DNA of 18,002 nucleotides, from the UHGV virus genome UHGV-0701411, one strand, 5' to 3'. Numbering within the stretch: the first letter of the stretch is position 1; each line of letters begins with the position of its first letter. Below, in pieces: positions 334-18,002 of this stretch. Source of the DNA: a virus. The notes beneath the pieces are model-generated. The model had not been told where the DNA came from. It saw only the letters and a list, made by a program, of their open reading frames with translations, and searched no databases. The translations under genes were made by a program, and so were the position numbers.

Positions 334-508
334 GCCAACAGGAATACCACAACCACAAAAACGCTACAAAGATGCCCACGGAGCACTCGTTACTGTCGAA
401 AGCGTGTCTCACAACCGAGTGACGTTTTATCGCGACGGGTATCAATCGCCATGCGTACAACCGCTGGCACGTTTCATGAAGGAGTTCGCGGAGGTTAACA
501 AATGCTAA
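326..508 (+). CDS. Small protein, DUF4222-like (60 aa, MSKPTGIPQPQKRYKDAHGALVTVESV...)
   Basis: ATG at 326 overlaps the upstream stop. Short, charged protein resembling the small DUF4222-type proteins found next to primases in P4-like prophages (recalled, not searched). Confidence 0.55.
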   Translation: MSKPTGIPQPQKRYKDAHGALVTVESVSHNRVTFYRDGYQSPCVQPLARFMKEFAEVNKC

Positions 509-1163: not shown

Positions 1164-1358
1164 ATGCTGGCTACTACCCCTACCCAAAAAACGCAATTTA
1201 TCTGGATTATCGCCGCAGTTCGCCGCGATTGCCCGACAATTACCGCCAAAATTCATCATATTGCTGCCGAGTCTGAACGCGATGCTCGCCGTTCTCTGGT
1301 GCGCGATCACATCTGCTTTTTTGCTGGTCGTATCCGCATGGAGGTGGCACATGATTAA
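1164..1358 (+). CDS. Hypothetical small protein (64 aa)
   Basis: Strong SD AAGGAGG 7 nt upstream of ATG 1164. Stop TAA 1356-1358 overlaps the next start (ATG 1351). Confidence 0.6.
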   Translation: MLATTPTQKTQFIWIIAAVRRDCPTITAKIHHIAAESERDARRSLVRDHICFFAGRIRMEVAHD

Positions 1359-1569
1359 AACCTACGATGTGCATATGGACCCCCTCGAACGCACAAGCCA
1401 GATCATCACACTGACAGAAGTGATTAATGACATTCTGGTGAGCAACTCTCCCTCACGAGACGAAAAACTGAAGGCGTTACTCGCGATATTGGACCTCGCC
1501 GTTCGTGACGTTCATTTCCTGCTGGAAGGTGGACAAATGCCATGCAAAACGGGGGCAACCAATGAATAA
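1351..1569 (+). CDS. Hypothetical small protein (72 aa, MIKTYDVHMDPLERTSQIITLTEVINDIL...)
   Basis: SD GGAGGTGG directly upstream of ATG 1351. It is the in-frame 3' part of the long ORF 502..1569 but has its own RBS. Coupled to neighbours by overlapping stop/start. Confidence 0.5.
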   Translation: MIKTYDVHMDPLERTSQIITLTEVINDILVSNSPSRDEKLKALLAILDLAVRDVHFLLEGGQMPCKTGATNE

Positions 1570-1756
1570 CTCAATTAATACCCATCGCCTTACGTCCGCA
1601 CTTCAATTAATCGAGCAAGCAGCGGCTATCCTGGTTGCTGTCAGTCTTTCGGCTGAAGAAATGGACGCTGCTGATGTCGTGGATGCGATTAAAGCGTGCT
1701 CATCTTTGGTTAACGATGCCCGTGCAGAGCTGGTAATTCTTGGTGGTGAAAAATGA
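1562..1756 (+). CDS. Hypothetical small protein (64 aa, MNNSINTHRLTSALQLIEQAAAILVAV...)
   Basis: ATG 1562 overlaps the upstream stop (1567-1569), with a G-rich stretch upstream. Internal start of track ORF 1505..1756. Confidence 0.5.
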   Translation: MNNSINTHRLTSALQLIEQAAAILVAVSLSAEEMDAADVVDAIKACSSLVNDARAELVILGGEK

Positions 1757-2016
1757 ATATCAACTTAATTTATCGTCATCCGTGTGAGCTGGAAATTGAA
1801 TCATTGCTGGGGCGCGAAGAGCCATATCCAGACACATTCACTCCCGCAGATTGCGCGACTGAACGGCTTACCAGAGCGCGCACAGGTCTGGTTCATGTGA
1901 TGAATGAGATTATTCCCTCGGTGGGAGGGGAACAGGCGACAGTAATCAATAGCTGGCTACAAAAAGTTACCTCCCTGATAGATATCAGTTTAATCGATGT
2001 GGAGAGTGCGAAATGA
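1753..2016 (+). CDS. Hypothetical small protein (87 aa)
   Basis: ATGA start/stop overlap with the upstream gene at 1753-1756; SD-like GGTGGTGA upstream. Confidence 0.55.
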   Translation: MNINLIYRHPCELEIESLLGREEPYPDTFTPADCATERLTRARTGLVHVMNEIIPSVGGEQATVINSWLQKVTSLIDISLIDVESAK

Positions 2017-2234
2017 CCAACATCCAGCTCATTGAAGCGCAATGTCGCATCGAACAGGTTCAGACTGTTTTAGGGTTCTGGCTTGAAGGGGCCAGCCCAA
2101 GCAACAGAGACAAGTTAATGATTGGCGCGGTTATGTCACTGCTCAATGGCGTACCAGAAGCTATTCAGGAAGCGGACGAATTGTTGGGCAAATATGAGTT
2201 ACAGAATCATTCAGGCGAGGCGAAACATGAATAA
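2013..2234 (+). CDS. Hypothetical small protein (73 aa)
   Basis: ATGA overlap at 2013-2016; SD-like GGAGAGTG upstream. Confidence 0.55.
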   Translation: MTNIQLIEAQCRIEQVQTVLGFWLEGASPSNRDKLMIGAVMSLLNGVPEAIQEADELLGKYELQNHSGEAKHE

Positions 2235-2829
2235 TTTCTTAACCTTCCATGCAGAAGCAACGCCTGACGGCGTAAACATCATGCACCGCAGCAACGATGG
2301 CATGACAGAACGCGTTGAGACCGTCTCATATATTGATGCCGTAAATCGTCTGGATGCCGGGGATTATGACGATAAACCAGATGAAGGCATGTTTATACAT
2401 CTCGCTATTGCCAGTGGCGGCAACCAGGGATATTTCGATTACACATCACAGCATCACGTGATTATGTGGCGCTGGCTGATAGCAACAGCATTCATCAATG
2501 AAATGAGAAAGGAAAACGGCACCGTCAGCATTATTGATGACAGTGGCAATCATTCCGTGGTTTCTGTTTATTCCAATGGCATCGTCGCCATGCCGCTGTA
2601 TCCAGTAGCAGAGCGCCTCGCTATGGCAAACAACATTGAGGGCGCAATGATCGAGAAATATGGTGTTGATGTCGGAACAAAGAATGCCATCATTTTTTAC
2701 AGCAACATGTTCGATGTCGAACAGGGAACACTCACTTCGTTTGGGCGAGAAGTGCTTGCCGATCTTCACAACAGCTTTATTGCCGAACTAAACGAAAACG
2801 GCATCCCAGAAGCACCAGTGACGCACTAA
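2227..2829 (+). CDS. Hypothetical protein (200 aa, MNNFLTFHAEATPDGVNIMHRSNDG...); alternative start 2122
   Basis: ATG 2227 overlaps the upstream stop (2232-2234), in line with the coupled operon. Last gene before the primase; no family recognised. Confidence 0.6.
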   Translation: MNNFLTFHAEATPDGVNIMHRSNDGMTERVETVSYIDAVNRLDAGDYDDKPDEGMFIHLAIASGGNQGYFDYTSQHHVIMWRWLIATAFINEMRKENGTVSIIDDSGNHSVVSVYSNGIVAMPLYPVAERLAMANNIEGAMIEKYGVDVGTKNAIIFYSNMFDVEQGTLTSFGREVLADLHNSFIAELNENGIPEAPVTH

Positions 2830-2841
2830 ACGGGGGCCAGA

Positions 2842-5193
2842 ATGCGAAACATTGATCTTATCCGTCAGGTTATCAGTGCGTCTGAAAACAACTGGCCTCA
2901 TGTGCTGGGCTGCCTGAACATAAATGTCCCTGACTCTCCGCGCCGTCATGCTCCCTGCCCTGCATGTGGGGGCAAAGATCGATTCCGGTTCGATGACAAC
3001 GGGCGCGGTAGCTTCATCTGTAATCAGTGCGGCGCTGGTGATGGGCTGGATTTAATTAAACGCGTAAATAACTGCGACACAACAGAGGCGGCGCTTCTTG
3101 CCGCTGATGTTCTGGGTATTGATTACCGGACAACGGAAACACCAGAAGCCACCAGCCAGAAACGGGAACAACTGGAAACCGAGCGCCAGCGACGCGAACA
3201 GGAGCGCCTGAAAAGGGCAGAGAAGGACGAACAACAAAGACGGGATACGTTTTCCCGTCAGTTTGATGACATGCGCAGAAAGGCTGTAAACGGCAAATCT
3301 GATTATCTGGTTGCGAAAGGGGTAGGTGATTTTACATTCCCCGTGTTGCCCGATGGATCTCTGTTGCTGGCGCTGGTGGATAAATCCGGCGCAGTCACAG
3401 CAGCACAGACTATTACCTCACATGGTGAAAAAAGACTCCTGACAGGTTCGGCAAAGCGGGGGGCATATCACGCCATAAACGCACAGAAACGACCTCACAG
3501 CATCATAATTGCTGAGGGGGTGGCTACCGCCCTGTCGTGCCATTTAATTCGCCCTGACGCAATGACAGTGGCAGCAATCGACGCTGGCAACCTGTTGCCA
3601 GTAGCGGAAGTCATGCGCAGAACATATCCACAGGCACAAATCATCATTGCCGCAGATAACGATCACCAGCAAGGAAACTCCGAAAGTGGAGGGATCAACA
3701 CGGGGAAAGATGCCGCAGAGAGGGCCGCTATTTCCGTAGCTGGCTGGGTGTCTCTGCCACCGACTGACTATAAAGCCGACTGGAACGACTATCACCAACA
3801 ACACGGGCTGGCGGCAGCCACAGCAGCATTTAAAGATTCGATGTACCAGCCACGGGGGAAAGGGGCGCAGGTGAAAAATCACAAACAGCCAGTCGGGGCG
3901 CTGAATGAGATCAGTTCTGGCGAGGTGTTAAGCGATGATGAAATTGCTGTCCTCGAAGAAATCAACCGGACGTTTACGCATGTCACCATTGGCGGGAAAC
4001 ACAAGGTGGTGTCGCTAAAGCCTTCTCAAACCGGCGGTGTATCGCACGTTTTCGAGGATTTATCACAATTTCAGCATTATTTTCATCATAAACCGAGAGT
4101 CGCCAGAAAGCTGGCGGGATCGGCGTGGCTGTCATGGAGTGGGAAGAACTACAAGCCAGGAGGCGTAGGATTTTATCCAGTACCAGGCAAATGCCCTGGC
4201 GATGTTTTTAATCTGTATGAGGGGCTGGCACTGGAACCAATTGAAGGAGATTGCACGGTATACCTTAATCACCTGTTGCAGGTTGTCTGTGCCGGTAATG
4301 AAGAGGCATACCAATATCTTATCCAGTGGATGGCGCACATTATCCAAAAGCCTGATGAAAAACCGTCCGTGGCAATCGTGATGAAATCTGTCCCGGGCAC
4401 AGGGAAAGGCACAACGGTTAAACCGCTGCTGCAAATACTGGGGCAGTACGCCGCCCACATTAACGGGGCGGGACATATTTCAGGGCGCTTCAATTCAATA
4501 CTTGCTAACAAGCTACTGGTATTTGCTGACGAAGTGACGATCCACAAGCCGTCTGAAGCTGACAGACTTAAAGCGATTATTAGCGAACCGACGTTTAACC
4601 TTGAGCGCAAGGGAATTGATGCTGAACCAATGCCGAATTTTGCCCGGTTGATATTTGCCAGTAACAGCACACAGGTATTACAGGCAGGGATAAGAGAGCG
4701 CCGCTATCTCGTGCTTGAGCCATCTCCTGAAAAAGCACAGAGCCGGGAGTATTTTGATCGGCTGTACAGTTGGCTTAATGATGGCGGTGCCGCAAAGTTG
4801 CTTTGGCATCTTAAAGGGGTGGATCTCTCAGGTTTTGACCCTCAACGAGCGCCACAGACCGATGCCTTACGTGAAGAAATCTTGCTGGGGCTGTCTGGCG
4901 TTGAATTGTTTCTTTATGGCGAGCTAATCAATGAACCTCCGTTTAATGGCGAAGTCCGTTTGTTTGCAAAGGATATGGTTAGTCGATTTGTAGCGTGGTC
5001 GCTTGAGCGTGGGGAAAAGCTTAAAGAGCCAGCAGCCAGATCACTACTGGGTAAATCACTTGCACAAATGGGGCTGGTGAAGCATGGAAGACCAGACCGA
5101 GGGAATGGCGTGTTCTACGAACTACCAGAGGTCGGAGTTCTACAGGCTGCGTTTGCCCGTCTGATCGGTATGGGGGGTTATGATGTTTTTTAA
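2842..5193 (+). CDS. P4 alpha-type bifunctional DNA primase/helicase (783 aa)
   Basis: N-terminal zinc ribbon CPACGG...CNQCG. Central TOPRIM-like segment (IIIAEGVATALS, AADND). C-terminal P-loop NTPase with Walker A VMKSVPGTGKGT and Walker B LLVFADEV. Architecture matches P4 alpha / D5-like primase-helicases. Confidence 0.93.
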   Translation: MRNIDLIRQVISASENNWPHVLGCLNINVPDSPRRHAPCPACGGKDRFRFDDNGRGSFICNQCGAGDGLDLIKRVNNCDTTEAALLAADVLGIDYRTTETPEATSQKREQLETERQRREQERLKRAEKDEQQRRDTFSRQFDDMRRKAVNGKSDYLVAKGVGDFTFPVLPDGSLLLALVDKSGAVTAAQTITSHGEKRLLTGSAKRGAYHAINAQKRPHSIIIAEGVATALSCHLIRPDAMTVAAIDAGNLLPVAEVMRRTYPQAQIIIAADNDHQQGNSESGGINTGKDAAERAAISVAGWVSLPPTDYKADWNDYHQQHGLAAATAAFKDSMYQPRGKGAQVKNHKQPVGALNEISSGEVLSDDEIAVLEEINRTFTHVTIGGKHKVVSLKPSQTGGVSHVFEDLSQFQHYFHHKPRVARKLAGSAWLSWSGKNYKPGGVGFYPVPGKCPGDVFNLYEGLALEPIEGDCTVYLNHLLQVVCAGNEEAYQYLIQWMAHIIQKPDEKPSVAIVMKSVPGTGKGTTVKPLLQILGQYAAHINGAGHISGRFNSILANKLLVFADEVTIHKPSEADRLKAIISEPTFNLERKGIDAEPMPNFARLIFASNSTQVLQAGIRERRYLVLEPSPEKAQSREYFDRLYSWLNDGGAAKLLWHLKGVDLSGFDPQRAPQTDALREEILLGLSGVELFLYGELINEPPFNGEVRLFAKDMVSRFVAWSLERGEKLKEPAARSLLGKSLAQMGLVKHGRPDRGNGVFYELPEVGVLQAAFARLIGMGGYDVF

Positions 5194-5223
5194 TATAGTC
5201 TTTTTACAAGAAGATCGCTTTTA

Positions 5224-5328
5224 CCTGTACCACCTATACCACTTTGCTAATTCAGTATTAAAAACAGTGCGTTATAGTGGTACAGGTCAATATCTTACCT
5301 ATACCAGACCTGTACCACCTATACCATT
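5224..5328. repeat. Iteron-like repeat cluster A: three copies of CCTGTACCAC(C)TATACC, two direct (5224-5242, 5309-5328) and one inverted (5271-5288)
   Basis: Read directly from sequence. Lies just 3' of the primase stop; candidate primase/replication-protein binding sites (ori/crr-like) or recombination sites. Confidence 0.6.
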
Positions 5329-5369
5329 AACAAACGCATTTCTTCTGGCTGGCTGAGAGGAAACAACCA

Positions 5370-5600
5370 ATGATGAGCACACCATTTTACAAAGTGCGCC
5401 AGTTAGCTTCTTCCTCTGGCTGGCAGCTACGGTTTGAGGGGCGTTCAGACTGGCTACCCATTGCGGCATGGGCGAATGTTGAAATGTGTATTGACGGCGA
5501 TACCGTTGAAATCATTATTCCCTGCGTGGCAAGTCGGGACGGCTGTATAGAGCCAACAGATATGGCAGCAGAAATCAGAGAGGTAAAACATGAACAATAA
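5370..5600 (+). CDS. Hypothetical protein (76 aa)
   Basis: SD AGAGGAAA 6 nt upstream of ATG 5370; overlaps the downstream gene start at 5590. Confidence 0.55.
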   Translation: MMSTPFYKVRQLASSSGWQLRFEGRSDWLPIAAWANVEMCIDGDTVEIIIPCVASRDGCIEPTDMAAEIREVKHEQ

Positions 5601-6327
5601 CTATTGCATACCGCAGGGAATGACCAGAACGGAGCGCGAAGAATTAAAAAGTTTCGCTACACAGTGCGGGAATGCTGGCGACATCCAAAGTCTGGAACGC
5701 ACTTTAATTATGATTGCGCACTGGATGCGCCAGGGGCAAAGAGTTTCATTTACTGAATATGCCAGCCAGTGGACAGAGGCACAGCGCGAACGGAGCGACG
5801 GTAATCACTCAACACCCGAAATGGCGAAGCAATGGCCTTTCAGTGGTAAACGCTGTATCAGTCCCGGTGGTTCAGATTATTACCCTGCTGGTGTGGGAGA
5901 TGAGCCATGTTGTGACGAGACTGAAATCCGCCACGCAGTGACAGTAATTACCGCTGAATACCCACAATTTAACCTTGACGGACTGGCGCTCCACAACCGG
6001 AATGCGGACTGGGAAAACCCGCTTGATAACCCGTCATTTATCGTATCGGCGAAAAGCTGCCTGAGATGGATCAGAGACAACGGGATGAGTAATGCCCAGA
6101 TTGAGAGCTTCCCGCAGGATAACCCCACATCTGACACGTTGAAGCATGAAGTGGAGCGATATAACCAGATAAACCACCAGCACAGTGATCACCCGCACTA
6201 TATCCCCAACGGAGCATTTATTGCGGCGATGGTGGCAAGCGGCTACAAGGTTAAGCCAGCGGGAAGAATGAACGCATTTTTCAATATTTCAAAAAAGGGA
6301 TTATGTGCTGCTATGGGTAAAAATTAA
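5590..6327 (+). CDS. Hypothetical protein (245 aa)
   Basis: ATG 5590 preceded by AGAGG; 11-nt overlap with the upstream ORF; no recognisable domain. Confidence 0.6.
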   Translation: MNNNYCIPQGMTRTEREELKSFATQCGNAGDIQSLERTLIMIAHWMRQGQRVSFTEYASQWTEAQRERSDGNHSTPEMAKQWPFSGKRCISPGGSDYYPAGVGDEPCCDETEIRHAVTVITAEYPQFNLDGLALHNRNADWENPLDNPSFIVSAKSCLRWIRDNGMSNAQIESFPQDNPTSDTLKHEVERYNQINHQHSDHPHYIPNGAFIAAMVASGYKVKPAGRMNAFFNISKKGLCAAMGKN

Positions 6328-6332
6328 ATAAA

Positions 6333-6437
6333 TGGTACAGGTCTGTACAGGTGGGGAGAGGTCATTTTTACCCACCTGTACCACCTGCAGGCCGCGCCAC
6401 ACAAGGGTTTGTGACATGGTGGTACAGGTGGTACAGC
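6333..6437. repeat. Iteron-like repeat cluster B: GGTACAGG / CCTGTACCACCT copies at 6333-6356, 6371-6391 and 6418-6437, partly arranged as an imperfect palindrome
   Basis: Same core motif as cluster A; together the clusters bracket the 5370..6327 module. Confidence 0.6.
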
Positions 6438-6801
6438 AAAAACAGCGATTTTCTTTATAAGGTATGTTTTGCTCATCTGGCAGACGGAGGTATTCGCTGC
6501 GGTTTGGCACATAGCCCAGAATAGCAAAGAGTTTTACGAGACTTTTGTAAAATCCAGTGTACAAGGGCGTGACGTTTTTGAAGGAGAGACCTACGAAATT
6601 TTCGTAGTTCAAAAAATAGCCTCTGAGATGTTGTTATGCCTGTTCAGCAAACCATCCGCATAGCTGATCGCGAATCAAATTACCAATGGAGCCAGAAGCA
6701 AGGGCAGAACTGAAAAGCTCACGCCATGAAGAATAATGCGACTCCATAAATATAGTTTTTAGAGTCCATAAAAAAACTGTCAAAACCTGACATACAGAAC
6801 G

Positions 6802-6835
6802 ATGCCACCAGCTACTGAACGGTGGCATTTTTTTG
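6802..6835 (+). terminator. Rho-independent terminator candidate (ATGCCACC-loop-GGTGGCAT followed by T7)
   Basis: 8-bp GC-rich stem, 11-nt loop, then TTTTTTTG on the + strand. Confidence 0.6.
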
Positions 6836-6854
6836 TGCTATTTGTTTCATATTT

Positions 6855-6916
6855 TGCAATCACAATGATGAATGTTGCGTTTTATGAAACTATAATAACT
6901 GTTGTTTTATACAGTT
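6855..6916 (+). promoter_or_regulatory. Putative promoter (-10 TATAAT at 6891-6896) with a LexA-box-like palindrome AACTGTTGTTTTATACAGTT (6897-6916)
   Basis: CTGT-N8-ACAG with an AT-rich spacer matches the E. coli SOS-box consensus CTGT-(AT)4-ACAG. It sits between the -10 and the RBS of the 6930 operon. The -35 is unclear. Confidence 0.4.
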
Positions 6917-6929
6917 CTAAGGGGGCGTT

Positions 6930-7103
6930 ATGGCTATTTCAGTAAAGCCAGTATTGATAAGTGAGAAGCAAATGGAAGCGATAAAGAAAATTCAGGAGGA
7001 GCAGCGTAAAAAATCAGAGGTAGGAGTTGCGCCAACGATCCACGAAATTGCTCGGGGATTAATGGATAAGGCGCTGGCTTACACTTTAACTGGACGTGGG
7101 TAA
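6930..7103 (+). CDS. Small protein (57 aa, MAISVKPVLISEKQMEAIKKIQEEQRKKSEVGVAPTIHEIARGLMDKALAYTLTGRG), possible ribbon-helix-helix fold
   Basis: Absent from the ORF track because it is short. SD AAGGGGG 4-5 nt upstream of ATG 6930; stop TAA at 7101-7103, 4 nt before the next start. The strand-helix-helix pattern is inferred from the sequence only. Confidence 0.45.
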   Translation: MAISVKPVLISEKQMEAIKKIQEEQRKKSEVGVAPTIHEIARGLMDKALAYTLTGRG

Positions 7104-7107
7104 ATCA

Positions 7108-8574
7108 ATGGCTACGTGGCAACAGGGTATTAATTCTGGTGGTTTTCTGGCTGGCATTGGTGCGCAAAATGAGAATGCGCCAAAGGCAAGCGACATTAAC
7201 GCAACGCTTGGTATGATCCGCGAAAACAATGAACTGGCTCGATCAGGTGCAAATAACGTTGCTCTGACAGGTCTTCGTGGTCTGGCTGGAGTTGCTGATA
7301 TTTATAAGCAGCAGCAACAGCAGGAGCGTAAAGCGGCATTCCAGAAAGGTTATGCAGATGCTTATGCGTCCGGTGACAGGGAGCAGATGCGTAATCTTAT
7401 TACAGCATTCCCAGAAGAGTTTGAGGAAGTCCGTAAAGGGATGAGTTATGTCGATGATGCTCAAAGGGATGATTATGGCAATCTGGCGCTCAAAGCACAG
7501 GTAGCCTCATCGCTTGGTCAGGGCGCATTTGGCAGGTTCATGATGGATAATGAGCAGGAGATGCGTCGTTTAGGTATCCCTCCAGAAACTATTGCTGAAA
7601 TGCAGGTTAATGACCCGCAGGGCTTCCAGCATTTCGCAGGTAATCTGGCGCTGTTTTCTCTCGGTCATGAGAAGTATTTCGATATCAAAGACCAAATGGA
7701 AGGTCGGGATATTGAGCGTGGCAAGTTGGCAGAGACAATCCGCAGCAATCAGGCTGGCGAAGCACTTCAGGCGAGAGGGCAGGATATTAGCCGAGCAAAT
7801 GCGTTAACGTCAGCATATGCCCCAACAGCAGCAATGCAGAATTACAATCAGTACGCTCAAATGTTAAAGGCGGATCCAGAGGGGGCGGCGGCATTTGCGG
7901 CAGCGGCTGGAATTAATACAAACGCCAAAAAATTAATGAGTGTTAGAGAAAACGATGATGGCACTGTCACAAAATACTACACAGACGGAAGTGAAGAGCA
8001 TGGAAAACTAAACCAGCCAATATCTGGAGATGGGTTTCGTCCAATAGCTTTGCCAACAGCCCAAAAGATCATGGAAAAGTCGCCAGAAGGGGCTAAAAAA
8101 GCTGCTGGATTTGCATACAGAGTTAGGGATGCTCTTGATTCAATGGATACACTGAAAGGCCAGCTTAGCCCACAGCGAGTGGCGATCATTAATAATGCTT
8201 TGGGTAATGGGACGCTGGCTAACTTAACGCTCAGCCCAACAGAGCAGCAATACGTTGTTAATGCTAATGACGCAATAATGGCAATACTCCGTCAGGAAAC
8301 AGGGGCAGCTATCGTACCTGCTGAAATGTCAAAATATTATCAAATGTATTTCCCTCAGCCTGGCGACTCCACAAAAACCATTGATACCAAGCGCCGGAAG
8401 ATGGAAAACCAGTTCAATTCGCTGAAAGCTGCTTCTGGTCGAGCTTATGATGCTTTGCGGGTTATTTCAGCAGTTGACAGAGGGACTTCTTCTTCGTCGC
8501 AGACATTGCCGCAATCTGAGCAGGTATCACAGCCAGCAGCCAGCAGTAATTTTTCTTCACTATGGGGTGATTAA
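7108..8574 (+). CDS. Large hypothetical protein A (488 aa), Ala/Gln/Gly-rich low-complexity, family not recognised
   Basis: Long ORF with start ATG 7108 (track begins at GTG 7096). Stop overlaps the start of protein B (TAATG at 8572-8576). No catalytic motif seen. Confidence 0.8.
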   Translation: MATWQQGINSGGFLAGIGAQNENAPKASDINATLGMIRENNELARSGANNVALTGLRGLAGVADIYKQQQQQERKAAFQKGYADAYASGDREQMRNLITAFPEEFEEVRKGMSYVDDAQRDDYGNLALKAQVASSLGQGAFGRFMMDNEQEMRRLGIPPETIAEMQVNDPQGFQHFAGNLALFSLGHEKYFDIKDQMEGRDIERGKLAETIRSNQAGEALQARGQDISRANALTSAYAPTAAMQNYNQYAQMLKADPEGAAAFAAAAGINTNAKKLMSVRENDDGTVTKYYTDGSEEHGKLNQPISGDGFRPIALPTAQKIMEKSPEGAKKAAGFAYRVRDALDSMDTLKGQLSPQRVAIINNALGNGTLANLTLSPTEQQYVVNANDAIMAILRQETGAAIVPAEMSKYYQMYFPQPGDSTKTIDTKRRKMENQFNSLKAASGRAYDALRVISAVDRGTSSSSQTLPQSEQVSQPAASSNFSSLWGD

Positions 8575-10679
8575 TGGCTAAAGCATGGAAAGATGTTATC
8601 GCCTCTCCACAGTATCAGGCGTTAGCACCAGAACAAAAAGCGCAGGCTCAGGAGCAATACTTCAATGAAGTCGTGGCCCCGCAAGCCGGAGAAAGTGTAG
8701 AGCAGGCTAAGCAGGCTTTTTATGCTGCCTATCCACTACCATCAACGAATGAAATAGACCGATCCCAATCAGCAACTCAAAATATTCAACATACATCATC
8801 TGATAATTCTCTTGCGTCAGGGTATGCAAAGTTAGCTACTCAGCAAAGAGAGGGGCTTGAGCGTTCAGCAGAACAGGGAGCCAGTCTTGGGGCTGCTATG
8901 CGCGATGCTATAACAGGCGAAAGCCGAATGACTCCAGAGATGGAGAGACTGCAAAATGTCGACCTTGCCCCAGAGTTAACCTCACTCAGCATGGATGCTC
9001 TAAAAGCTCGATGGTCTCAACTTTTCGGCTCTGACGCATCTCAGGAAAAGATTCTTCAGAGCATGGGAGCGAAATTAAGGCAGGATGAGAAGGGTAACAC
9101 TATCGTTTCCCTGCCATCCGGTGATTATGCTCTGAACAAGCCGGGTTTATCGCCGCAAGACGTGGCATCGTTTCTGGCTAATGCGCTGGCGTTTACACCA
9201 GCGGGCAGGGCTGGAACGGTGCTTGGTGCCATAGGAAAATCAGCAGCTACAGATTTAGCACTACAGGGAGCCACCAGCCTTGCTGGTGGAGAAGATATTG
9301 ATCCGTTACAAACGGTAATTTCTGCTGGCATTGGTGGTATTGGTAAGGGGCTGGAAAATACAGCGAGTGCGGTTTCGAGGGCTGTTCGTGGTGATATGTC
9401 GCCTGAAGCAAAGGCTGCTGTCAACTTTGCATCGGAAAGAAATCTGCCGTTAATGACCAGTGACATGCTGAAAGATAAAACCTTTATGCAGAGTCAGGCT
9501 CAGACATTAGGCGAAAGAGTTCCTTTTTTTGGAACCGGTAAGAATCGGCTGAATCAACAACAAGCACGAGAAAATTTAGTCAGAACATTTAGCGATGGTC
9601 TGGGTGGCATTTCTGATAAACAGCTTTATGAATCTGCGACTAAAGGGCAACAAAAATTCATTGAGGCAGCAGGAAAGCGATATAACCGCATAATTGACGC
9701 TATGGGGGATACCCCTGTCGATCTCTCAAACACGGTAAAAGCTATCGACAATCAGATTGCCGTGTTAAGCCGCCCTGGCAAATCTCAGGATAGAGCCGCG
9801 GTAAAAGTCTTGCAGCAATTTAAAGACGATATCACCAGCGGACCAAATGACCTGCGTCTGGCGAGGGAAAACAGAACCGATCTTCGAAAGCGATTTATGG
9901 CGTCATCTGACACTGTTGATAAAGATACGCTCCAGAAAGCCAGCGATATTATCTACAAGGCATATACGGCGGATATGAAAAAAGCCGTAGCCAAAAATCT
10001 TGGAGCAGACGAAGCCATTAATATGGCAAGGGTTGATCGCTCATGGTCTAAATTCAATGACATGATGGGAAGAACGCGCGTTCAAAAGGCAATAGCCAGC
10101 GGCAAGGCCACGCCTGAGGATGTAACAAAACTCGTTTTTAGCCAAAGCCCATCAGAACGTTCTCAGCTTTACAGGCTTCTGGATGACAATGGTAGGCAAA
10201 ACGCACGAGCAGCCATAGTTCAGAATGCTGTAGATAAGGCGACTGATCCGTCTGGAAATATCAGTGTTGAGAAGTTTATTAATGCGTTACACCGGAACAG
10301 GAAGCAATCAGCAACTTTCTTTAAAGGCGTACATGGAAAGGAACTGGACGGCGTTATTAAATACCTCAACGATACAAGACACGCGGCAAAAGCGAACGTT
10401 CAAAACTTAAATGGTCAGCAGCTTTATGGATTGTTAGTTGGTGGTGGCATCATAAACGCAGCAGTATTAGCGGGGATGCTAAAAACGGCTGCGTTTGTTG
10501 TTCCTGCTGCTGGTGCCGTAGGCGGAGCAGCGAAGGCATACGAAAGCCCTGTTATTCGAAATGCCTTGTTACGTCTGGCAAATACGCCAAAAGGTAGCAC
10601 AGCATATGACAGAGCGATCAGTACGGTCACACAATCACTGACCACAGCAGCACAAGCATCGCAAAAGGAAGCTCAATAA
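8574..10679 (+). CDS. Large hypothetical protein B (701 aa), Ala/Gln-rich with a C-proximal Gly/Ala-rich hydrophobic segment
   Basis: ATG 8574 is translationally coupled to A. Hydrophobic stretch LYGLLVGGGIINAAVLAGMLKTAAFVVPAAGAVGGAAKAY encoded at about 10424-10546. No enzymatic motif seen. Confidence 0.85.
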   Translation: MAKAWKDVIASPQYQALAPEQKAQAQEQYFNEVVAPQAGESVEQAKQAFYAAYPLPSTNEIDRSQSATQNIQHTSSDNSLASGYAKLATQQREGLERSAEQGASLGAAMRDAITGESRMTPEMERLQNVDLAPELTSLSMDALKARWSQLFGSDASQEKILQSMGAKLRQDEKGNTIVSLPSGDYALNKPGLSPQDVASFLANALAFTPAGRAGTVLGAIGKSAATDLALQGATSLAGGEDIDPLQTVISAGIGGIGKGLENTASAVSRAVRGDMSPEAKAAVNFASERNLPLMTSDMLKDKTFMQSQAQTLGERVPFFGTGKNRLNQQQARENLVRTFSDGLGGISDKQLYESATKGQQKFIEAAGKRYNRIIDAMGDTPVDLSNTVKAIDNQIAVLSRPGKSQDRAAVKVLQQFKDDITSGPNDLRLARENRTDLRKRFMASSDTVDKDTLQKASDIIYKAYTADMKKAVAKNLGADEAINMARVDRSWSKFNDMMGRTRVQKAIASGKATPEDVTKLVFSQSPSERSQLYRLLDDNGRQNARAAIVQNAVDKATDPSGNISVEKFINALHRNRKQSATFFKGVHGKELDGVIKYLNDTRHAAKANVQNLNGQQLYGLLVGGGIINAAVLAGMLKTAAFVVPAAGAVGGAAKAYESPVIRNALLRLANTPKGSTAYDRAISTVTQSLTTAAQASQKEAQ

Positions 10680-10740
10680 CAGATGACCATGGATGGTTGG
10701 TTATAATAGTAATTAGTATTTTTTCAAATAGTTATGAACA

Positions 10741-14471: not shown

Positions 14472-14738
14472 CGTGTACACAAGGGTGTACCTACTGAGAA
14501 AACGCATTACAAGAAACACAGCAACCACGGGAGTTTAAAGCCACTACTCAATAAACAGATCCAGAATATCGAATAAGCTATCAGCAAAAATCACCAAGCA
14601 GCAAAAAACCATAAAGCCCGCGAAATGTCGGGCTTTTTTGTTATCATGAGCTATCATAACGACGCAACAAAGCGCATGATTATGGTGTACACAAAGGTGT
14701 ACCCAATGAGGTTTGGGTACATTGCTTTGGGTACACCC
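14472..14738. repeat. Repeat family GTGTACACAA(A/G)GGTGTACC (14472-14492, 14684-14704) and GGGTACATTGCTTTGGGTACACCC (14715-14738) upstream of the integrase; candidate Int arm-type (attL) sites
   Basis: Near-identical 20-mers about 210 bp apart, directly 5' of the integrase start; related copies at 6555-6575, 11192-11207 and 11505-11515. Confidence 0.55.
14613..14640 (+). terminator. Rho-independent terminator (AAAGCCCG-loop-CGGGCTTT then TTTTTTG)
   Basis: Perfect 8-bp stem with 8-nt loop and a T-run; A-run on the 5' side makes it potentially bidirectional. Sits between the att-like repeats and the integrase start. Confidence 0.7.
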
Positions 14739-14765
14739 CCTATTCAAAGTTTGGATATTCGCAAA

Positions 14766-16025
14766 ATGCCAAAACTAACAGACATGCAGATCCGCGCATG
14801 GATTAAGAGCGGAGAGCGATTCGAGGGGCGGGCAGACGGTAACGGTTTATACCTACGTTACCGTGAAGCCGACAAAACCCCCACATGGAGATTCCGCTAT
14901 AAACTCGCAGGGAAGTCCCGCGCCATGCTAATTGGTTCGTATAGCGAGATATCACTATCAAAGGCCAGAGAGACAGCCAAAGAGCTGTCAGCCAGAGTTG
15001 CTCTTGGCTATGACGTAGCAGCAGAGAAACAGGAACGAAAAGCTGAAGCACTGGCAAAAATGGAGGCTGAGAAAAACGCCATGCGTGTTTCAGATCTGGC
15101 CTCCGAATACTTCGAGCGCCAGATACTTCCGAGATGGAAACATCCCGATATCCTTCGCCGGAGAATTGATAAGGATATTAACCCCTGCATTGGGCATATG
15201 AAGGTAGAGGACGTTAAGCCACGCCACATTGACGACATGTTGAAAGGTATCGTTGACCGAGGAGCACCAACGATAGCAACAGATGTATTACGCTGGACAC
15301 GCCGTATCTTTGACTACGGGATAAAACGCCACGCTCTGGAGATAAACCCTTGTTCAGCGTTTGAAGTATCTGATGCTGGTGGTAAAGAGGTTTCCCGCGA
15401 CCGTTGGCTAACTCGCGATGAGCTTATCAGGCTATTCGAGGCTATGCGCACCGCAAAAGGATTCAGCCGCCAGAACGAACTGACATTTAAGCTATTGCTG
15501 GCACTATGCGTTCGTAAGATGGAGTTATGCGCCGCACGATGGGAAGAGTTTGATTTAGATGGTGCGGTATGGCATTTGCCGGAAGAACGCAGCAAAAACG
15601 GAGACCCTATTGATATACCTCTACCTTCTCCAGCCGTTGAATGGTTGAGAGAACTACACACCTTTTCATGTAATAGCGCATGGGTGCTTCCAGCCAGGAA
15701 GATGCAAAACAGAATGATCCCACATATTCAGGAAAGCACTTTGCCCGTAGCACTGGCTAAGGTTCGCGCCGAAATGCCGGATGTGCCTAATTTCACGATT
15801 CACGACTTCCGACGCACCGCACGTACTCATTTAGCAGCGTTGGGCGTTGATCCGGTAGTCGCAGAAAGATGCCTTAATCACAAAATTAAAGGTGTGGAGG
15901 GTATCTATAACCGTCACCAGTATTTTGATGAGCGTAAAGCGGCGCTGGCGCAGTGGTGTGATTTGCTGGTGGCACTGGAGCGCGGCGAAGAATACAACGT
16001 GACGCCTATCAGAAAGGCAAAGTAA
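14766..16025 (+). CDS. Tyrosine site-specific integrase, P4/CP4-57 type (419 aa; alternative starts 14706 or 14625)
   Basis: N-terminus MPKLTDMQIRAWIK...GLYLRY...WRFRYK matches the P4-type Int N-terminal pattern. C-terminal catalytic signature HDFRRTARTHL ... Y. The track ORF begins at 14625 but overlaps the terminator hairpin, so a downstream start is preferred. Confidence 0.93.
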   Translation: MPKLTDMQIRAWIKSGERFEGRADGNGLYLRYREADKTPTWRFRYKLAGKSRAMLIGSYSEISLSKARETAKELSARVALGYDVAAEKQERKAEALAKMEAEKNAMRVSDLASEYFERQILPRWKHPDILRRRIDKDINPCIGHMKVEDVKPRHIDDMLKGIVDRGAPTIATDVLRWTRRIFDYGIKRHALEINPCSAFEVSDAGGKEVSRDRWLTRDELIRLFEAMRTAKGFSRQNELTFKLLLALCVRKMELCAARWEEFDLDGAVWHLPEERSKNGDPIDIPLPSPAVEWLRELHTFSCNSAWVLPARKMQNRMIPHIQESTLPVALAKVRAEMPDVPNFTIHDFRRTARTHLAALGVDPVVAERCLNHKIKGVEGIYNRHQYFDERKAALAQWCDLLVALERGEEYNVTPIRKAK

Positions 16026-16118
16026 CCGAACAGACCGGAACTAGCCCGACGGGGCGAAAAGCGGAAAGCCTTACCGCCTGTTCCGGTCACTCTTTAAGGC
16101 AGCGCGAAAGGTTACGCT

Positions 16119-17000
16119 ATGAGCAAATTGTTCCAGTTCAAAAGTTGGTTGACCATAGAGGAAACCGCAAACAGGTTAAGCACAACACTCGGTGAAAGGG
16201 TATCTGTAGCCGATTGCCTGCAATTGGCTGTAGAAGGCCACATTACAATTTCAGCGATATTGGACGAAGGCCGTTACGCTATCGCTGCTCAAGTCATCAA
16301 AAACTCGCAACGAAGAGTTTTTGAAAAGTGGATTGTTGAAAATACTAACGAAGGTGCGGTAATTAGAACTCCTGCCGGTGATGAATTCTATACCAATGAA
16401 CAATTGGATTATGAATACGAAGATATAGAAAGAGTCAGTGATGTTTTTCGTATTAATCATGGCATATACGATCTACCGATGGTTGGGGCTGAATCTTTAG
16501 ATGTTATGCACGAGTTTGACCTTTCACGCGACAAGGTTCCCCGTGAATTTCACAACATGGAAGGTGCTTTCCTCTTAACAGAATTTGGTCTGGTGAATAT
16601 TCTGAACGCGTTCAATGAATATGCCATCAAGTCAGATGAAAATGGCAAACCTAAACTGTACGACAAAGAATCACAGAGGTTTGTTGACTTTAGCCTCGAT
16701 GGTTATCATCCCTTTTTCTATCCTGCTGATGGGCTGGGTAATGTCGAGTTCGTATTCAGAAAAGAAAATATTGCAGAATTTGAAAAGAAAACACTCAGTG
16801 ATAACAACAGTCTCCTGAACCTCGATGAAAGCCTTTTACTGCTTGGCGCGGTGCTCAACGCTTTAAAGAAAGCCGAACCAACTTCTAAAAGGTGGACACA
16901 AGAAGCCCTCAAAGCAGAAATGCTGGATAGGGGTTTAAAATTAAGCTCCCGCTTACTGGATGAATATTTCTCATCAGCTAACAAATCTTTTAAATCATAA
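16119..17000 (+). CDS. Hypothetical protein (293 aa), AT-rich cargo gene between int and alpA
   Basis: SD GAAAGG 7 nt upstream of ATG 16119. About 42% GC versus about 52% in flanks. No recognisable domain. Confidence 0.8.
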   Translation: MSKLFQFKSWLTIEETANRLSTTLGERVSVADCLQLAVEGHITISAILDEGRYAIAAQVIKNSQRRVFEKWIVENTNEGAVIRTPAGDEFYTNEQLDYEYEDIERVSDVFRINHGIYDLPMVGAESLDVMHEFDLSRDKVPREFHNMEGAFLLTEFGLVNILNAFNEYAIKSDENGKPKLYDKESQRFVDFSLDGYHPFFYPADGLGNVEFVFRKENIAEFEKKTLSDNNSLLNLDESLLLLGAVLNALKKAEPTSKRWTQEALKAEMLDRGLKLSSRLLDEYFSSANKSFKS

Positions 17001-17004
17001 AGAT

Positions 17005-17036
17005 AATTTCGCAACGAAAATCCATTTTTCGTTGCG
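17005..17036 (+). terminator. Perfect inverted repeat TCGCAACGAAAA-N5-TTTTCGTTGCGA; terminator or operator candidate
   Basis: 12-bp stem, 5-nt loop, immediately after the 16119..17000 stop and before alpA. Confidence 0.45.
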
Positions 17037-17105
17037 ATGACATCTAATCCCCCTGCTCACATGATTACCGTAACTTCAACAGCTATCACAGGAGTTACAG
17101 GACAT

Positions 17106-17324
17106 ATGACAGCACATAACGCAGCGCAATCAGCACTTCCTACTACTGGATACATCCGCCGTTTTCGTATGCCGGAACTTCTGGGTGTTTCCATGCCAAC
17201 CATTGACCGCTGGGTTAAGAACGGCACGCTGCCGCGCCCAGTGAAACTCACCGATAACGTGACCGCCTTTGATGCGGTAGAGATTAATAACTGGCTGGCT
17301 GAGCGCCGGGGAAAGGTGGCGTAA
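17106..17324 (+). CDS. alpA: AlpA-family phage transcriptional regulator/excisionase-like protein (start uncertain: 17037, 17061 or 17106)
   Basis: Segment IRRFRMPELLGVSMPTIDRWVKNGTLPRPVKL...AFDAVEINNWLAER matches the AlpA/Vis-type MerR-like HTH pattern. Position after int is as in CP4-57. Confidence 0.75.
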   Translation: MTAHNAAQSALPTTGYIRRFRMPELLGVSMPTIDRWVKNGTLPRPVKLTDNVTAFDAVEINNWLAERRGKVA

Positions 17325-17758
17325 TGAAAAAGAAAAACCGCCCCGTACAGCAGGCGGCTAACTCAGATATTCGCACGTCTGATATTACGCCGACCACCAG
17401 CCCGGTACAAGTACCTAAGCGTACCCCAAAGAAACACCGCGCCCGCGTCTATATGCTGCGTACTGGTATAGAGGGATGGACAGAAAATGACATTCTTCGC
17501 TACTGCCGTCTGTCTTCTGGTCGTAACTATGCAACAGAGTTAGAACGCCAGCTTGGAATCACTCTGGAGCGTATCGACGAAAAGAATCCTGATGGTATCG
17601 GAACACACCTTCGCTACCGTTTCTCCTGCCGTGGTGATGTTCTGAAAGTGATCACTCATGTTAACCATCTTGCGAACATAAATGATCACAACGGACTTTC
17701 TCAGCAGGAAATTGCCGACATTCTGAAACTCTACCCGGACGCGTTTAACGCCGCCTAA
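17324..17758 (+). CDS. Hypothetical protein (144 aa) with basic N-terminus
   Basis: ATG 17324 overlaps the alpA stop (TAATG), indicating coupling; no family recognised with confidence. Confidence 0.65.
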   Translation: MKKKNRPVQQAANSDIRTSDITPTTSPVQVPKRTPKKHRARVYMLRTGIEGWTENDILRYCRLSSGRNYATELERQLGITLERIDEKNPDGIGTHLRYRFSCRGDVLKVITHVNHLANINDHNGLSQQEIADILKLYPDAFNAA

Positions 17759-17770
17759 CGGAGACTGAAA

Positions 17771-18002
17771 ATGAACATCGAAAAAAGCAGATTAATTTCT
17801 GAGGCTGCCCCTCATCTGAACGCCTCTCTGGGCACAATTAACGGTAATGAATTTGCCGCAATTGTCCCGGTTATTCCTGGTCATATCGGTGGGCGTGAAA
17901 CCAATATTGTTAGCGCAAAAGCGTTACACAAAGCGTTGGGCGTGGGAAAAGACTTCTCTACATGGATCACTGATCGCATCTCTGAATATGACTTCACCAT
18001 TG
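17771..18002 (+). CDS. Phage antirepressor-like protein (AntA/Bro-N-type N-terminal domain), 3' end outside window
   Basis: SD GGAGA upstream of ATG 17771. Motif SAKALHKALGVGKDFSTWITDRISEY resembles the antirepressor N-terminal domain; the ORF is open to the window end. Confidence 0.55.
   Translation, partial: MNIEKSRLISEAAPHLNASLGTINGNEFAAIVPVIPGHIGGRETNIVSAKALHKALGVGKDFSTWITDRISEYDFTI

What the first reader, a model, noticed from the sequence alone, without database searches (positions are those of the whole stretch)
16119..17000. AT-rich 293-aa unknown gene in the int-alpA cargo slot
GC content drops to about 42% for exactly this ORF, indicating separate acquisition. The position between integrase and AlpA is a variable cargo site in CP4-57-like islands. 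No domain recognised; candidate single-gene defence or abortive-infection factor.
Basis: partly seen in the sequence, partly recalled or inferred. Interest (0 to 1): 0.55.

Follow-up and report, generated by a model that had tools for sequence, protein, structure and literature searches.

The report
Conserved DNA-binding gatekeeper gene before alpA
The AT-rich 293-aa gene is real, but rather than random defence cargo it belongs to a large uncharacterised protein family that sits between integrase and alpA in genomic islands across Proteobacteria, and it probably binds a pair of operator-like sites at the alpA promoter to control when the island activates.

Summary
ORF 16119-17000 (+, 293 aa) lies between a P4-type integrase and alpA. 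It is 40.8% GC against 49-52% for its neighbours and matches no Pfam, NCBIfam, PHROG or PADLOC model.

The defence-cargo reading is not supported.
- The protein belongs to a large unnamed family: 2,209 cluster representatives in a 1.84-billion-protein library.
- In 51 loci from gamma-, beta- and delta-proteobacteria it sits in the same place: integrase upstream in 35/42 loci, and an AlpA/Xis gene downstream in about 36-38/45.
- It is absent from 50,697 phage genomes and has one weak hit in 72,556 plasmids.
- Where recognisable defence genes occur (MmeI-type restriction-modification in L041), they lie between int and this gene, which stays next to alpA.
- The GC dip is family-wide (31/32 loci), so it is not a mark of recent acquisition here.

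The predicted structure has an N-terminal excisionase-type winged helix, a β-rich middle domain with no structural match, and a variable helical C-terminus. Just after the stop codon lie two palindromic sites 20 bp apart (17008-17018, 17028-17038), abutting a positionally conserved -35/-10 pair for alpA. Such twin sites follow 29/49 family genes against about 1% of controls, and they track this gene rather than AlpA or Int.

Best reading (confidence 0.45): a site-specific regulator of the alpA promoter. The slot is genuinely variable in E. coli. The Rfam int-alpA RNA (16034-16100) looks like this gene's 5' leader.

The parts
14561..14576 (.). Attachment-site core, approximate (the 3' end of yicC, CAGAATATCGAATAAG). 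Here it is a junction between an island right end and the integrase end.
   Evidence: Homology to the E. coli yicC-int junction starts at 14556. Island right-end matches stop at 14563-14576.
14706..16025 (+). P4-type tyrosine integrase. The longest ORF starts at 14625; the RefSeq start corresponds to 14706.
   Evidence: Pfam Arm-DNA-bind_3 5e-20, Phage_int_M 1e-16, Phage_integrase 6e-17. RefSeq annotation is in L001.
16034..16100 (+). int-alpA RNA motif (Rfam RF02996), a three-way junction. It ends 18 nt before the ORF start codon and is a likely 5' leader of the slot gene.
   Evidence: 66.1 bits against a gathering score of 35.8. The same motif lies 12-20 nt upstream of the slot gene in 14/14 loci, whatever protein follows. 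Compensatory P1 stems are visible.
16119..17000 (+). The 293-aa gene of the finding, a member of a large unnamed family (called FAM in this report).
   Evidence: AlphaFold2 model with pLDDT 88.3.
16119..16253 (+). N-terminal domain (residues 1-45 plus the wing that follows): excisionase/AlpA/MerR-type winged helix, and the most conserved part of the family.
16254..16793 (+). Central beta-rich domain (residues about 46-225) with the family motifs G-x-[YW]-D-L-P-M-x-G-x-E-x-L-D-V-x-H and Y-P-A-x-G-L...R. It has no structural or sequence relative.
16821..16997 (+). C-terminal three-helix domain (residues about 235-293), helix-turn-helix-like. It is conserved within Enterobacterales and variable across the wider family.
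   Evidence: Model helices 235-251, 261-270 and 277-292, pLDDT 64-87. Subthreshold Pfam HTH_62 hit at residues 244-269.
17008..17018 (.). Operator-like site 1, TTCGCAACGAA (TTCG-N3-CGAA palindrome).
17028..17038 (.). Operator-like site 2, TTCGTTGCGAT, 20 bp from site 1 and overlapping the -35-like hexamer.
   Evidence: Twin sites follow 29/49 family genes against 23/1879 random windows and 16/1960 shuffles.
17037..17065 (+). Putative alpA promoter: ATGACA, 17 nt, CATGAT.
   Evidence: Consensus scan. The same ATGAC[AT]-17-nt-(AATCAT/TTTAAT/TTAAAT/AATGAT) arrangement can be read in L003, L005, L007, L020, L025 and L029 despite divergent spacers.
17068..17101 (+). Conserved inverted repeat CCGTAAC...GTTACAGG enclosing the alpA ribosome-binding site.
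   Evidence: Eight predicted pairs, only one with a compensatory change.
17106..17324 (+). alpA (72 aa), AlpA-family winged-helix regulator/excisionase.
   Evidence: Pfam PF05930 7e-06. RefSeq start is in L001.
17324..17758 (+). 144-aa gene translationally coupled to alpA, named 'PM1773 family protein' in one RefSeq record.

Best explanation
The gene encodes a three-domain DNA-binding protein that is a standing component of the int-X-alpA control module of integrative islands, here an EcCIMP1-like phage satellite at yicC. It is not a passenger.

Inferred mechanism: two dimers bind the pair of palindromic sites (TTCG-N3-CGAA, 20 bp apart) that lie 8-38 nt after its own stop codon and abut the -35 element of the alpA promoter. 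This would set whether AlpA, the master activator/excision factor, is made. The highly conserved N-terminal excisionase-type winged helix and the central beta domain would contact a conserved partner or signal. The variable C-terminal helical domain is the best candidate for reading the element-specific sites. The int-alpA RNA is the gene's 5' leader.

Shown here: family size, synteny, domain layout, the twin sites and their linkage to this gene.
Inferred: that the protein binds those sites and regulates alpA. Whether it activates or represses is not resolved.
For: 1. Synteny. In 51 loci from gamma-, beta- and delta-proteobacteria, a P4-type Int lies upstream on the same strand in 35/42 loci (29 within 400 nt). 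An AlpA/Xis-type gene lies within 400 nt downstream in 27/45 by a small HMM, plus 7 of 8 further loci by Pfam. Individual contexts in Yersinia, Providencia, Salmonella, Pectobacterium and Neptunomonas agree.
2. Distribution. The family has 2,209 representatives yet none in 50,697 phage genomes and one weak hit in 72,556 plasmids.
3. Cargo sits elsewhere. Extra genes insert between int and this gene, leaving it beside alpA: a MmeI-type IIG restriction-modification gene in L041, an HSDR_N-AAA-CSD protein in L042, and transposase-like ORFs (by inspection) in L025.
4. Twin sites. Self-palindromic sites spaced 20-21 bp follow the stop codon in 29/49 loci, against 1.2% of random windows and 0.8% of shuffles.
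5. The sites track this gene, not AlpA or Int.
   - L010 and L012 have identical AlpA but different sites.
   - L009 has nearly the window's AlpA but no such sites.
   - Pectobacterium loci (L023, L071) have a 24%-identical Int and an unrelated AlpA; the matching twin site is read in L023, which carries two substitutions and fell below the strict scan.
6. The sites behave like protein sites, not an RNA stem. The outer TTCG/CGAA tetramers are invariant or near-invariant in most enterobacterial loci, while the central base varies without compensation. No T-tract follows.
7. Site 2 overlaps a -35/-10 pair that keeps its position across enterobacterial loci.
8. Fold. N-terminal Xis/AlpA-type winged helix; C-terminal three-helix domain with a weak HTH_62 hit.
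9. Fast divergence. The protein is 40-54% identical where Int is 89-94% identical, as expected for a specificity determinant.
10. Literature. alpA is switched on specifically by helper phage and the trigger is unknown (PMC6092414, PMC11773190, PMC10803314). In PICMI115 the gene between int and alpA is needed for helper-induced excision, and 13 unrelated families occupy that position (PMC10803314).
Against: - There is no binding or expression data; the link between protein and sites rests on co-inheritance of adjacent DNA.
- The N-terminal recognition helix is almost invariant while the sites differ, so it cannot be the specific reader.
- The C-terminal domain is only moderately confident (pLDDT 64-87) and is not a recognised HTH family.
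- A test of site class against domain similarity could not separate the C-terminus from overall relatedness.
- 20/49 loci lack a clean twin site, though several of these are truncated genes.
- The unrelated slot genes in L010 and L011 are followed by ordinary terminators.
- Islands with an empty slot exist (L016).
- The EcCICFT073 alpA promoter responds to helper phage on a plasmid without other island genes (PMC6092414), so such a factor is not universally needed.
- The promoter hexamers are weak consensus matches (9/12).
Confidence: 0.45

Rival explanations
1. Excision or integration cofactor. The protein works with Int and AlpA in the recombination complex (an enlarged recombination-directionality-type factor), like the IOLG/ICG genes of Vibrio PICMI satellites. 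It would not be a transcription regulator.
For: - Same position as PICMI iolg/icg, which is required for helper-induced excision (PMC10803314).
- The N-terminal domain has the excisionase fold.
- The gene is strictly coupled to P4-type integrases.
- In Shewanella, Pseudoalteromonas, Colwellia and Nitrosomonas loci the gene overlaps or abuts int (-8 to +16 nt), as iolg does.
- An unrelated E. coli slot gene (L009) overlaps int by 4 nt.
Against: - The only conserved sites linked to the gene lie about 2.4 kb from the att core, next to alpA, not in an att arm.
- The family pairs with unrelated integrases: 24% identity in Pectobacterium and Brenneria at 43-47% family identity.
- Homology to PICMI115 IOLG could not be tested. 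No Vibrio member appeared among the 120 listed hits of a marine-seeded search.
- The PICMI iolg deletion overlaps int, so polarity is possible.
Confidence: 0.2
2. One reading: a single-gene anti-phage defence or abortive-infection protein carried as cargo in the 5' accessory slot of the satellite.
For: - PICIs are reported to carry immune systems at their 5' or 3' ends (PMC11364771, citing Fillol-Salom 2022).
- The slot is exchangeable in E. coli and all occupants are AT-rich.
- The protein diverges much faster than Int.
- EcCIMP1-type satellites give unexplained superinfection immunity with no known defence system (PMC11773190).
Against: - No PADLOC hit for this gene or for six alternative slot genes, apart from one weak PDC-S31 hit for L010.
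- No nuclease, NTPase, transmembrane or other effector-like domain; no structural relative.
- Position-locked next to int and alpA across classes of Proteobacteria and absent from phages and plasmids, unlike known defence genes.
- Recognisable defence genes occupy a separate place between int and this gene.
- The GC dip is family-wide.
Confidence: 0.12
3. The twin palindromes are only the gene's transcription terminator or an RNA-stabilising hairpin. The protein would then be an unrelated accessory factor of unknown role.
For: Because each site is a palindrome, the two copies can pair into a 10-18-bp hairpin. In L049 the hairpin is flanked by A and T runs like a bidirectional terminator. The unrelated slot genes in L010 and L011 end with canonical terminators.
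Against: - Each arm is itself palindromic, which an RNA stem does not need.
- Spacing is fixed at 20-21 bp.
- The central base differs between arms without compensation in most enterobacterial loci.
- Most loci have no T-tract after the stem.
Confidence: 0.1

Closest known systems
IOLG/ICG genes of PICMI satellites (Vibrionaceae; Barcia-Cruz et al. 2024, PMC10803314)
   Same: Both are defined by position between int and alpA, on the same strand, with unknown function and many unrelated families in the same place. One of them (PICMI115 iolg) is needed for helper-induced excision. Marine members of the present family also overlap or abut int.
   Different: Sequence relatedness was not established. 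In this window the gene is separated from int by 93 nt that hold the int-alpA RNA. The PICMI authors propose a role in the excision complex, not at a promoter.
SaPI/PICI master repressor Stl (Rpr) of Gram-positive satellites
   Same: Both are satellite-encoded DNA-binding proteins next to int. Both are highly divergent between otherwise similar elements and are positioned to control the gene that starts the satellite cycle. The known family couples induction to helper-phage proteins.
   Different: There is no sequence or fold relation. This gene is co-directional with the gene it would control, not divergent from it. Activator versus repressor is unknown. Gram-negative PICIs are described as lacking such a repressor (PMC6092414).
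Excisionase / AlpA / MerR-type winged-helix proteins (Pukovnik Xis 4j2n, GIsul2 excisionase 8c3t, RdfS 8dgl)
   Different: Those are 50-70-residue single-domain proteins. This one carries about 240 further residues. No Pfam AlpA or HTH_17 sequence match was found.
5'-end immune cargo of PICIs (Fillol-Salom et al. 2022, as cited in PMC11364771)
   Same: Located at the int-proximal end of a Gram-negative satellite, in an exchangeable interval.
   Different: There is no match to known defence models. The gene is conserved in position across Proteobacteria, and defence genes in related loci sit upstream of it.
Rfam RF02996 int-alpA RNA
   Same: The 16034-16100 element is a clear member (66 bits).
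   Different: Rfam lists it as an sRNA gene. Here it always abuts the ribosome-binding site of the slot gene, which suggests a cis-acting leader.

Membership tests
Known or candidate anti-phage defence proteins (PADLOC-DB v2) | Significant match to a defence-system protein model | tested here: not met
   0 families at E<=1 for the ORF. Alternative slot genes also give none, apart from one weak PDC-S31 hit (E=0.002) for L010.
Known or candidate anti-phage defence proteins | Found in varied mobile contexts (prophages, plasmids, defence islands) rather than one fixed position | tested here: not met
   No hit in 50,697 phage genomes; 1 weak hit in 72,556 plasmids. Int lies upstream in 35/42 loci.
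Known or candidate anti-phage defence proteins | Protection against phage when expressed | not testable with these tools
   Needs plaque assays.
Excisionase/AlpA/MerR winged-helix fold (N-terminal domain only) | beta-alpha-alpha-beta-beta winged helix that superposes on solved excisionases | tested here: met
Pfam Phage_AlpA (PF05930) / HTH_17 (PF12728) | Sequence match above the gathering score | tested here: not met
   No hit in the ORF or in any of 75 family members.
PICMI IOLG/ICG class | Gene between int and alpA, on the same strand | tested here: met
PICMI IOLG/ICG class | Overlaps int by 1-13 nt (iolg) or is contiguous with it (icg) | tested here: inconclusive
   In this window there is a 93-nt gap holding an RNA motif. 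Other family members overlap by 8 nt or lie 2-16 nt away (L047-L050, L038, L056, L062).
PICMI IOLG/ICG class | Required for helper-induced excision | not testable with these tools
   Needs a deletion mutant and attP qPCR.
PICMI IOLG/ICG class | Sequence homology to one of the 13 IOLG/ICG families | not tested
   Only locus tags are given in the paper's supplement, and the sequences could not be fetched. No Vibrio member was seen among the 120 listed hits.
Stl-like satellite master regulator (functional class) | Cognate operator sites at the promoter of the gene that starts the satellite cycle | tested here: inconclusive
   Twin palindromes that track the gene abut the alpA -35 element. Binding was not shown.
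Stl-like satellite master regulator (functional class) | Divergent transcription from the controlled operon | tested here: not met
   Same strand as alpA.
Rfam RF02996 int-alpA RNA (the element at 16034-16100) | Covariance-model score above the gathering threshold | tested here: met
   66.1 bits against 35.8; full-length model match 1-71.

The most novel reading that the evidence does not exclude
The family is the missing input device of AlpA-controlled islands in Gram-negative bacteria. Its conserved N-terminal and central domains would sense a helper-derived cue (a phage or conjugative-element protein, or a nucleic-acid state). Its variable C-terminal domain, bound at the twin operators, would then switch the alpA promoter. 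That would make it a functional counterpart of the Gram-positive Stl repressor, built on an unrelated and structurally new scaffold, with the int-alpA RNA as its own regulatory leader. The unrelated genes that replace it in E. coli islands, several of which share the same kind of N-terminal domain and are followed by their own palindromes, would be alternative sensors tuned to different helpers.
Probability: 0.22. Interest if true: 0.85.

Novelty: new variant of a known kind. Interest (0 to 1): 0.6.

Why it matters
AlpA is the master switch of Gram-negative phage satellites (PICIs, PICMIs) and of many integrative islands. Three papers state that how a helper phage turns alpA on is unknown (PMC6092414, PMC10803314, PMC11773190).

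This analysis gives a concrete candidate: one protein family, a defined pair of DNA sites and a defined promoter. It can be tested with a gel shift, a reporter fusion and one deletion.

It also has practical consequences for genome mining:
- It warns against reading every AT-rich gene in the int-alpA interval as defence cargo.
- It indicates where real cargo enters, between int and this gene.
- It suggests that the Rfam int-alpA RNA is a 5' leader rather than a free small RNA.
- It defines a large (>2,000 clusters) protein family with no Pfam entry and a central domain with no structural relative.

Tried and rejected
- Subthreshold matches judged to be chance: Pfam TEBP_beta, Anticodon_2 and HTH_48, and a PDB sequence hit to the T7 capsid protein (E=0.027).
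- Foldseek against PDB and BFVD gave nothing with E<=0.001. The afdb50 library was not available.
- The broad alignment A2 was too diverse to seed a locus scan, so A1 was used instead.
- The Cell 2022 paper on PICI immune systems is not held, so it is cited only through PMC11364771.
- I tested whether site class follows the C-terminal domain more than the rest of the protein. Both are higher in same-site pairs, so the test cannot separate domain from relatedness.
- A profile-profile comparison of the family with the alternative E. coli slot genes aligned only the N-terminal 40 columns, in register but weakly (E=0.03, probability 1.6%). I treat this as suggestive only.
- A link to PICMI iolg could not be made.
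- An AlpA-binding explanation for the twin sites was rejected on the natural experiments. An Int arm-site explanation was rejected because of distance from att and the unrelated integrases.
- CP4-57 itself is not a good model: yfjH lies between intA and alpA on the opposite strand.
- The strict even-palindrome scan missed the enterobacterial TTCG-N3-CGAA type and was replaced by a gapped-palindrome scan.

Full report
OBSERVATION. It is 40.8% GC (GC3 39.5%). The integrase upstream is 49.0%, alpA downstream is 51.7% and the window as a whole is 47.9%. Only 1.1% of equally long windows in this sequence are as AT-rich. The upstream gene is a P4-type tyrosine integrase and the downstream gene is an AlpA-family winged-helix protein. 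No model in Pfam, PADLOC, NCBIfam or PHROGs reaches threshold.

WHAT THE ELEMENT IS. The right part of the window (14556-18002) is 99.9% identical to an island inserted at the 3' end of yicC in E. coli. The gene order there is int, this gene, alpA, a 144-aa gene, antA/antB, DUF4222, ash, a DUF5906 primase and two phage DNA-ejection-protein homologues. That layout matches EcCIMP1, a satellite of the P22-like phage Kapi1 (PMC11773190). Window 1-10696 equals the downstream part of the same island type (97.7% to L001 15717-26374). The window is therefore a tandem copy or a circular permutation, joined at a core of about 16 bp near 14561-14576. No complete E. coli genome carries that junction.

THE PROTEIN FAMILY. 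A word-indexed search found 54 full-length homologues at 39-93% identity in Escherichia, Enterobacter, Serratia, Morganella, Providencia, Yersinia, Salmonella, Pectobacterium and others. All are annotated as hypothetical. A profile search that read all 1.84 billion cluster representatives found 2,209 with E<=0.001 and 390 with E<=1e-30. Named members come from Aquitalea, Rhodoferax, Neptunomonas and similar genera and are again hypothetical. None of 75 diverse members hits a Pfam family consistently. Conservation is at the protein level, because synonymous sites vary freely in the first 15 codons.

STRUCTURE. AlphaFold2 on the family alignment gives pLDDT 88.3. The model has three parts:
- an N-terminal beta-alpha-alpha-beta-beta winged helix;
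- a beta-rich middle domain (about residues 46-225);
- three C-terminal helices (residues 235-292, pLDDT 64-87).

IS IT CARGO? In E. coli the interval is exchangeable. Islands whose int and alpA flanks are about 91-93% identical hold unrelated genes in the slot:
- 216 aa, overlapping int by 4 nt (L009);
- 321, 316, 281 and 307 aa (L010, L011, L012, L014);
- a DUF6387 protein, or nothing, in tRNA-Thr islands (L017, L016).
All are AT-rich (35-42% GC) and none is a known defence protein. Only 32 of 5,426 complete genomes carry a close copy of this particular gene.

Outside this local exchange the family is strikingly fixed in position. In 51 loci recovered from one genome per species, a P4-type integrase lies upstream on the same strand in 35 of 42 informative loci, 29 of them within 400 nt. 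An AlpA/Xis-type gene follows within 400 nt in 27 of 45 by a small HMM. Pfam confirms it in 7 of 8 further loci that the HMM had missed. The hosts span gamma-, beta- and delta-proteobacteria.

The family is absent from 50,697 phage genomes and has one weak hit among 72,556 plasmids. Where extra genes occur they lie between int and the family gene, which stays next to alpA. Examples are a MmeI-type IIG restriction-modification enzyme in L041, an HSDR_N-AAA-cold-shock-domain protein in L042, and ORFs that look like transposases by inspection in L025.

The gene is less GC-rich than its integrase in 31 of 32 loci, whether the neighbouring integrase is at 39% or 69% GC. The dip therefore does not date an acquisition. 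The protein also evolves much faster than Int: 40-54% identity where Int is 89-94% identical. It also pairs with unrelated integrases.

TWO FLANKING NUCLEIC-ACID ELEMENTS. Upstream, 16034-16100 is a full-length match to the Rfam int-alpA RNA (66 bits against a gathering score of 35.8). It folds as a three-way junction whose outer stem changes in a compensatory way between loci. In 14 of 14 loci the motif ends 12-20 nt before the start codon of whatever gene fills the slot. It is absent where the slot is empty. This suggests a 5' leader rather than a free small RNA.

Downstream, 8 nt after the stop codon, lie TTCGCAACGAA (17008-17018) and TTCGTTGCGAT (17028-17038), 20 bp apart. Almost every family locus has such a pair directly after the stop codon, but with different sequences. 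Examples are CCGAATTCGG x2, CCCAATTGGG x2, CCGCAATTGCGG x2, GGCAATTGCC x2, GGTTAACC x2 and CCGCnnGCGG x2, spaced 20-21 bp. A gapped-palindrome scan finds a pair in 29 of 49 loci. The control rates are 23 of 1,879 random windows from the same loci and 16 of 1,960 shuffles.

The arms are themselves palindromic. In most enterobacterial loci the outer tetramers are invariant or near-invariant, while the central base differs between the arms without compensation, and no T-tract follows. This fits protein-binding sites better than a terminator stem.

The sites travel with the slot gene, not with AlpA or Int:
- L010 and L012 encode identical AlpA but have different downstream sequences.
- L009 has nearly the window's AlpA but no such sites.
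- Pectobacterium loci (L023, L071) have an unrelated AlpA and a 24%-identical Int. The matching twin site is read in L023, although it carries two substitutions and fell below the strict scan.

Site 2 overlaps a -35-like ATGACA, followed 17 nt later by a -10-like hexamer. That arrangement can be read at the same distance in L003, L005, L007, L020, L025 and L029 despite unrelated spacers. With a transcription start about 7 nt after the -10 hexamer, the sites would be centred near -39 and -59. That position suits either an activator or a repressor.

MOST LIKELY FUNCTION. Taken together, the gene is best read as a site-specific DNA-binding protein that belongs to the int-X-alpA module and acts at the alpA promoter (confidence 0.45).

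The literature gives the context. AlpA is the master activator of Gram-negative satellites and its transcription is triggered by the helper phage by an unknown route (PMC6092414; PMC11773190). In the Vibrio satellite PICMI115 the gene between int and alpA is needed for helper-induced excision, and 13 unrelated families occupy that position (PMC10803314).

What remains inferred:
- that the protein binds the sites;
- which domain reads them: the N-terminal helix is too invariant, the C-terminus is the candidate, and my covariation test was confounded by relatedness;
- the direction of regulation.

Counter-evidence:
- islands with an empty slot exist;
- two of the unrelated slot genes end in ordinary terminators;
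- the EcCICFT073 alpA promoter responds to helper phage without other island genes (PMC6092414).

RIVALS.
- An excision-complex cofactor in the PICMI sense (0.2). This fits the excisionase fold and the integrase coupling, but not sites that lie 2.4 kb from att.
- A defence or abortive-infection protein (0.12). This fits the exchangeable slot and the statement that PICIs carry immune genes at their 5' end (PMC11364771). It is contradicted by the distribution, by the lack of any effector-like feature and by the separate location of real defence genes.
- A plain terminator with an unrelated protein (0.1).

COMPARISON AND NOVELTY. The family has no Pfam entry, no solved or predicted structural relative for its central domain, and no mention in the held literature. 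By position and logic it resembles PICMI IOLG and, functionally, the Stl repressors of Gram-positive satellites. It shares sequence with neither as far as could be tested. I class it as a new variant of a known kind: a mobile-element control protein. If the sensor model holds, it would make the long-standing question of how helpers induce alpA directly testable.

Noticed in passing
window 16034-16100 (+); also L003, L005, L010, L012, L014, L017, L018, L020, L029, L037, L046, L055, L064: The Rfam int-alpA RNA (RF02996, listed as an sRNA) ends 12-20 nt before the start codon of the gene in the int-alpA slot in 14/14 loci, whatever protein family follows. It is absent where the slot is empty (L016). 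It looks like a cis-acting 5' leader.
   Followed up: partly
window 17068-17101 (+): A conserved inverted repeat, CCGTAAC-N19-GTTACAGG in this window (N23 in the gapped alignment), encloses the alpA ribosome-binding site just before the ATG. It is present with all slot genes examined. The sequence is conserved with only one compensatory change, so it could be an RNA hairpin controlling translation or a DNA site, for example for AlpA autoregulation.
   Followed up: partly
window 1-10696 and 14556-18002: The window is a circular permutation or tandem repeat of one ~18.3-kb EcCIMP1-like satellite. Its left part equals the region downstream of its right part in E. coli NZ_CP062855. The junction at about 14561-14576 joins an island right end to the int end through the yicC-derived core, and no complete E. 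coli genome has this junction.
   Followed up: partly
window 883-960 and 1023-1110 (+): Full-length isrK and C4 antisense RNA matches (Rfam, 68 and 80 bits) lie inside the 355-aa ORF 502-1569 that RefSeq names 'ash family protein'. This is a P4/P1-type immunity RNA region that recurs in all related islands.
   Followed up: no
L041 2224-4989; L042 1478-4420; L025 2553-4696: In some family loci a recognisable or likely defence gene, or ORFs that look like transposases by inspection, sits between int and the family gene. These are a MmeI-type IIG restriction-modification enzyme (L041), a 981-aa HSDR_N-AAA-cold-shock-domain protein with no PADLOC hit (L042) and the transposase-like ORFs (L025). 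This marks the real cargo insertion point.
   Followed up: partly
L009-L012, L014, L017 (E. coli islands at yicC and tRNA-Thr): The alternative slot genes (216-321 aa, 35-42% GC) form a mosaic. L010, L011 and L012 share a C-terminal ~70-aa module. L010, L011, L012 and L014 share an N-terminal ~40-aa segment that aligns in register with the N-terminus of the family studied here (weakly, hhalign E=0.03). L012 is followed by its own twin site, TAAAATTTA x2, spaced 21 bp.
   Followed up: partly
window 7096-10679 (+): Two large ORFs (492 and 701 aa) correspond to genes annotated as phage DNA ejection/injection proteins in the near-identical E. coli island. This is unusual content for a satellite and parallels EcCIMP1_017-019, which resemble proteins of its P22-like helper.
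   Followed up: no
L046 4359-5819: Variovorax robiniae carries two adjacent family-related ORFs. The upstream copy is a weak match (E=5e-07). The int-alpA RNA sits before that first copy and the twin sites follow the second.
   Followed up: no
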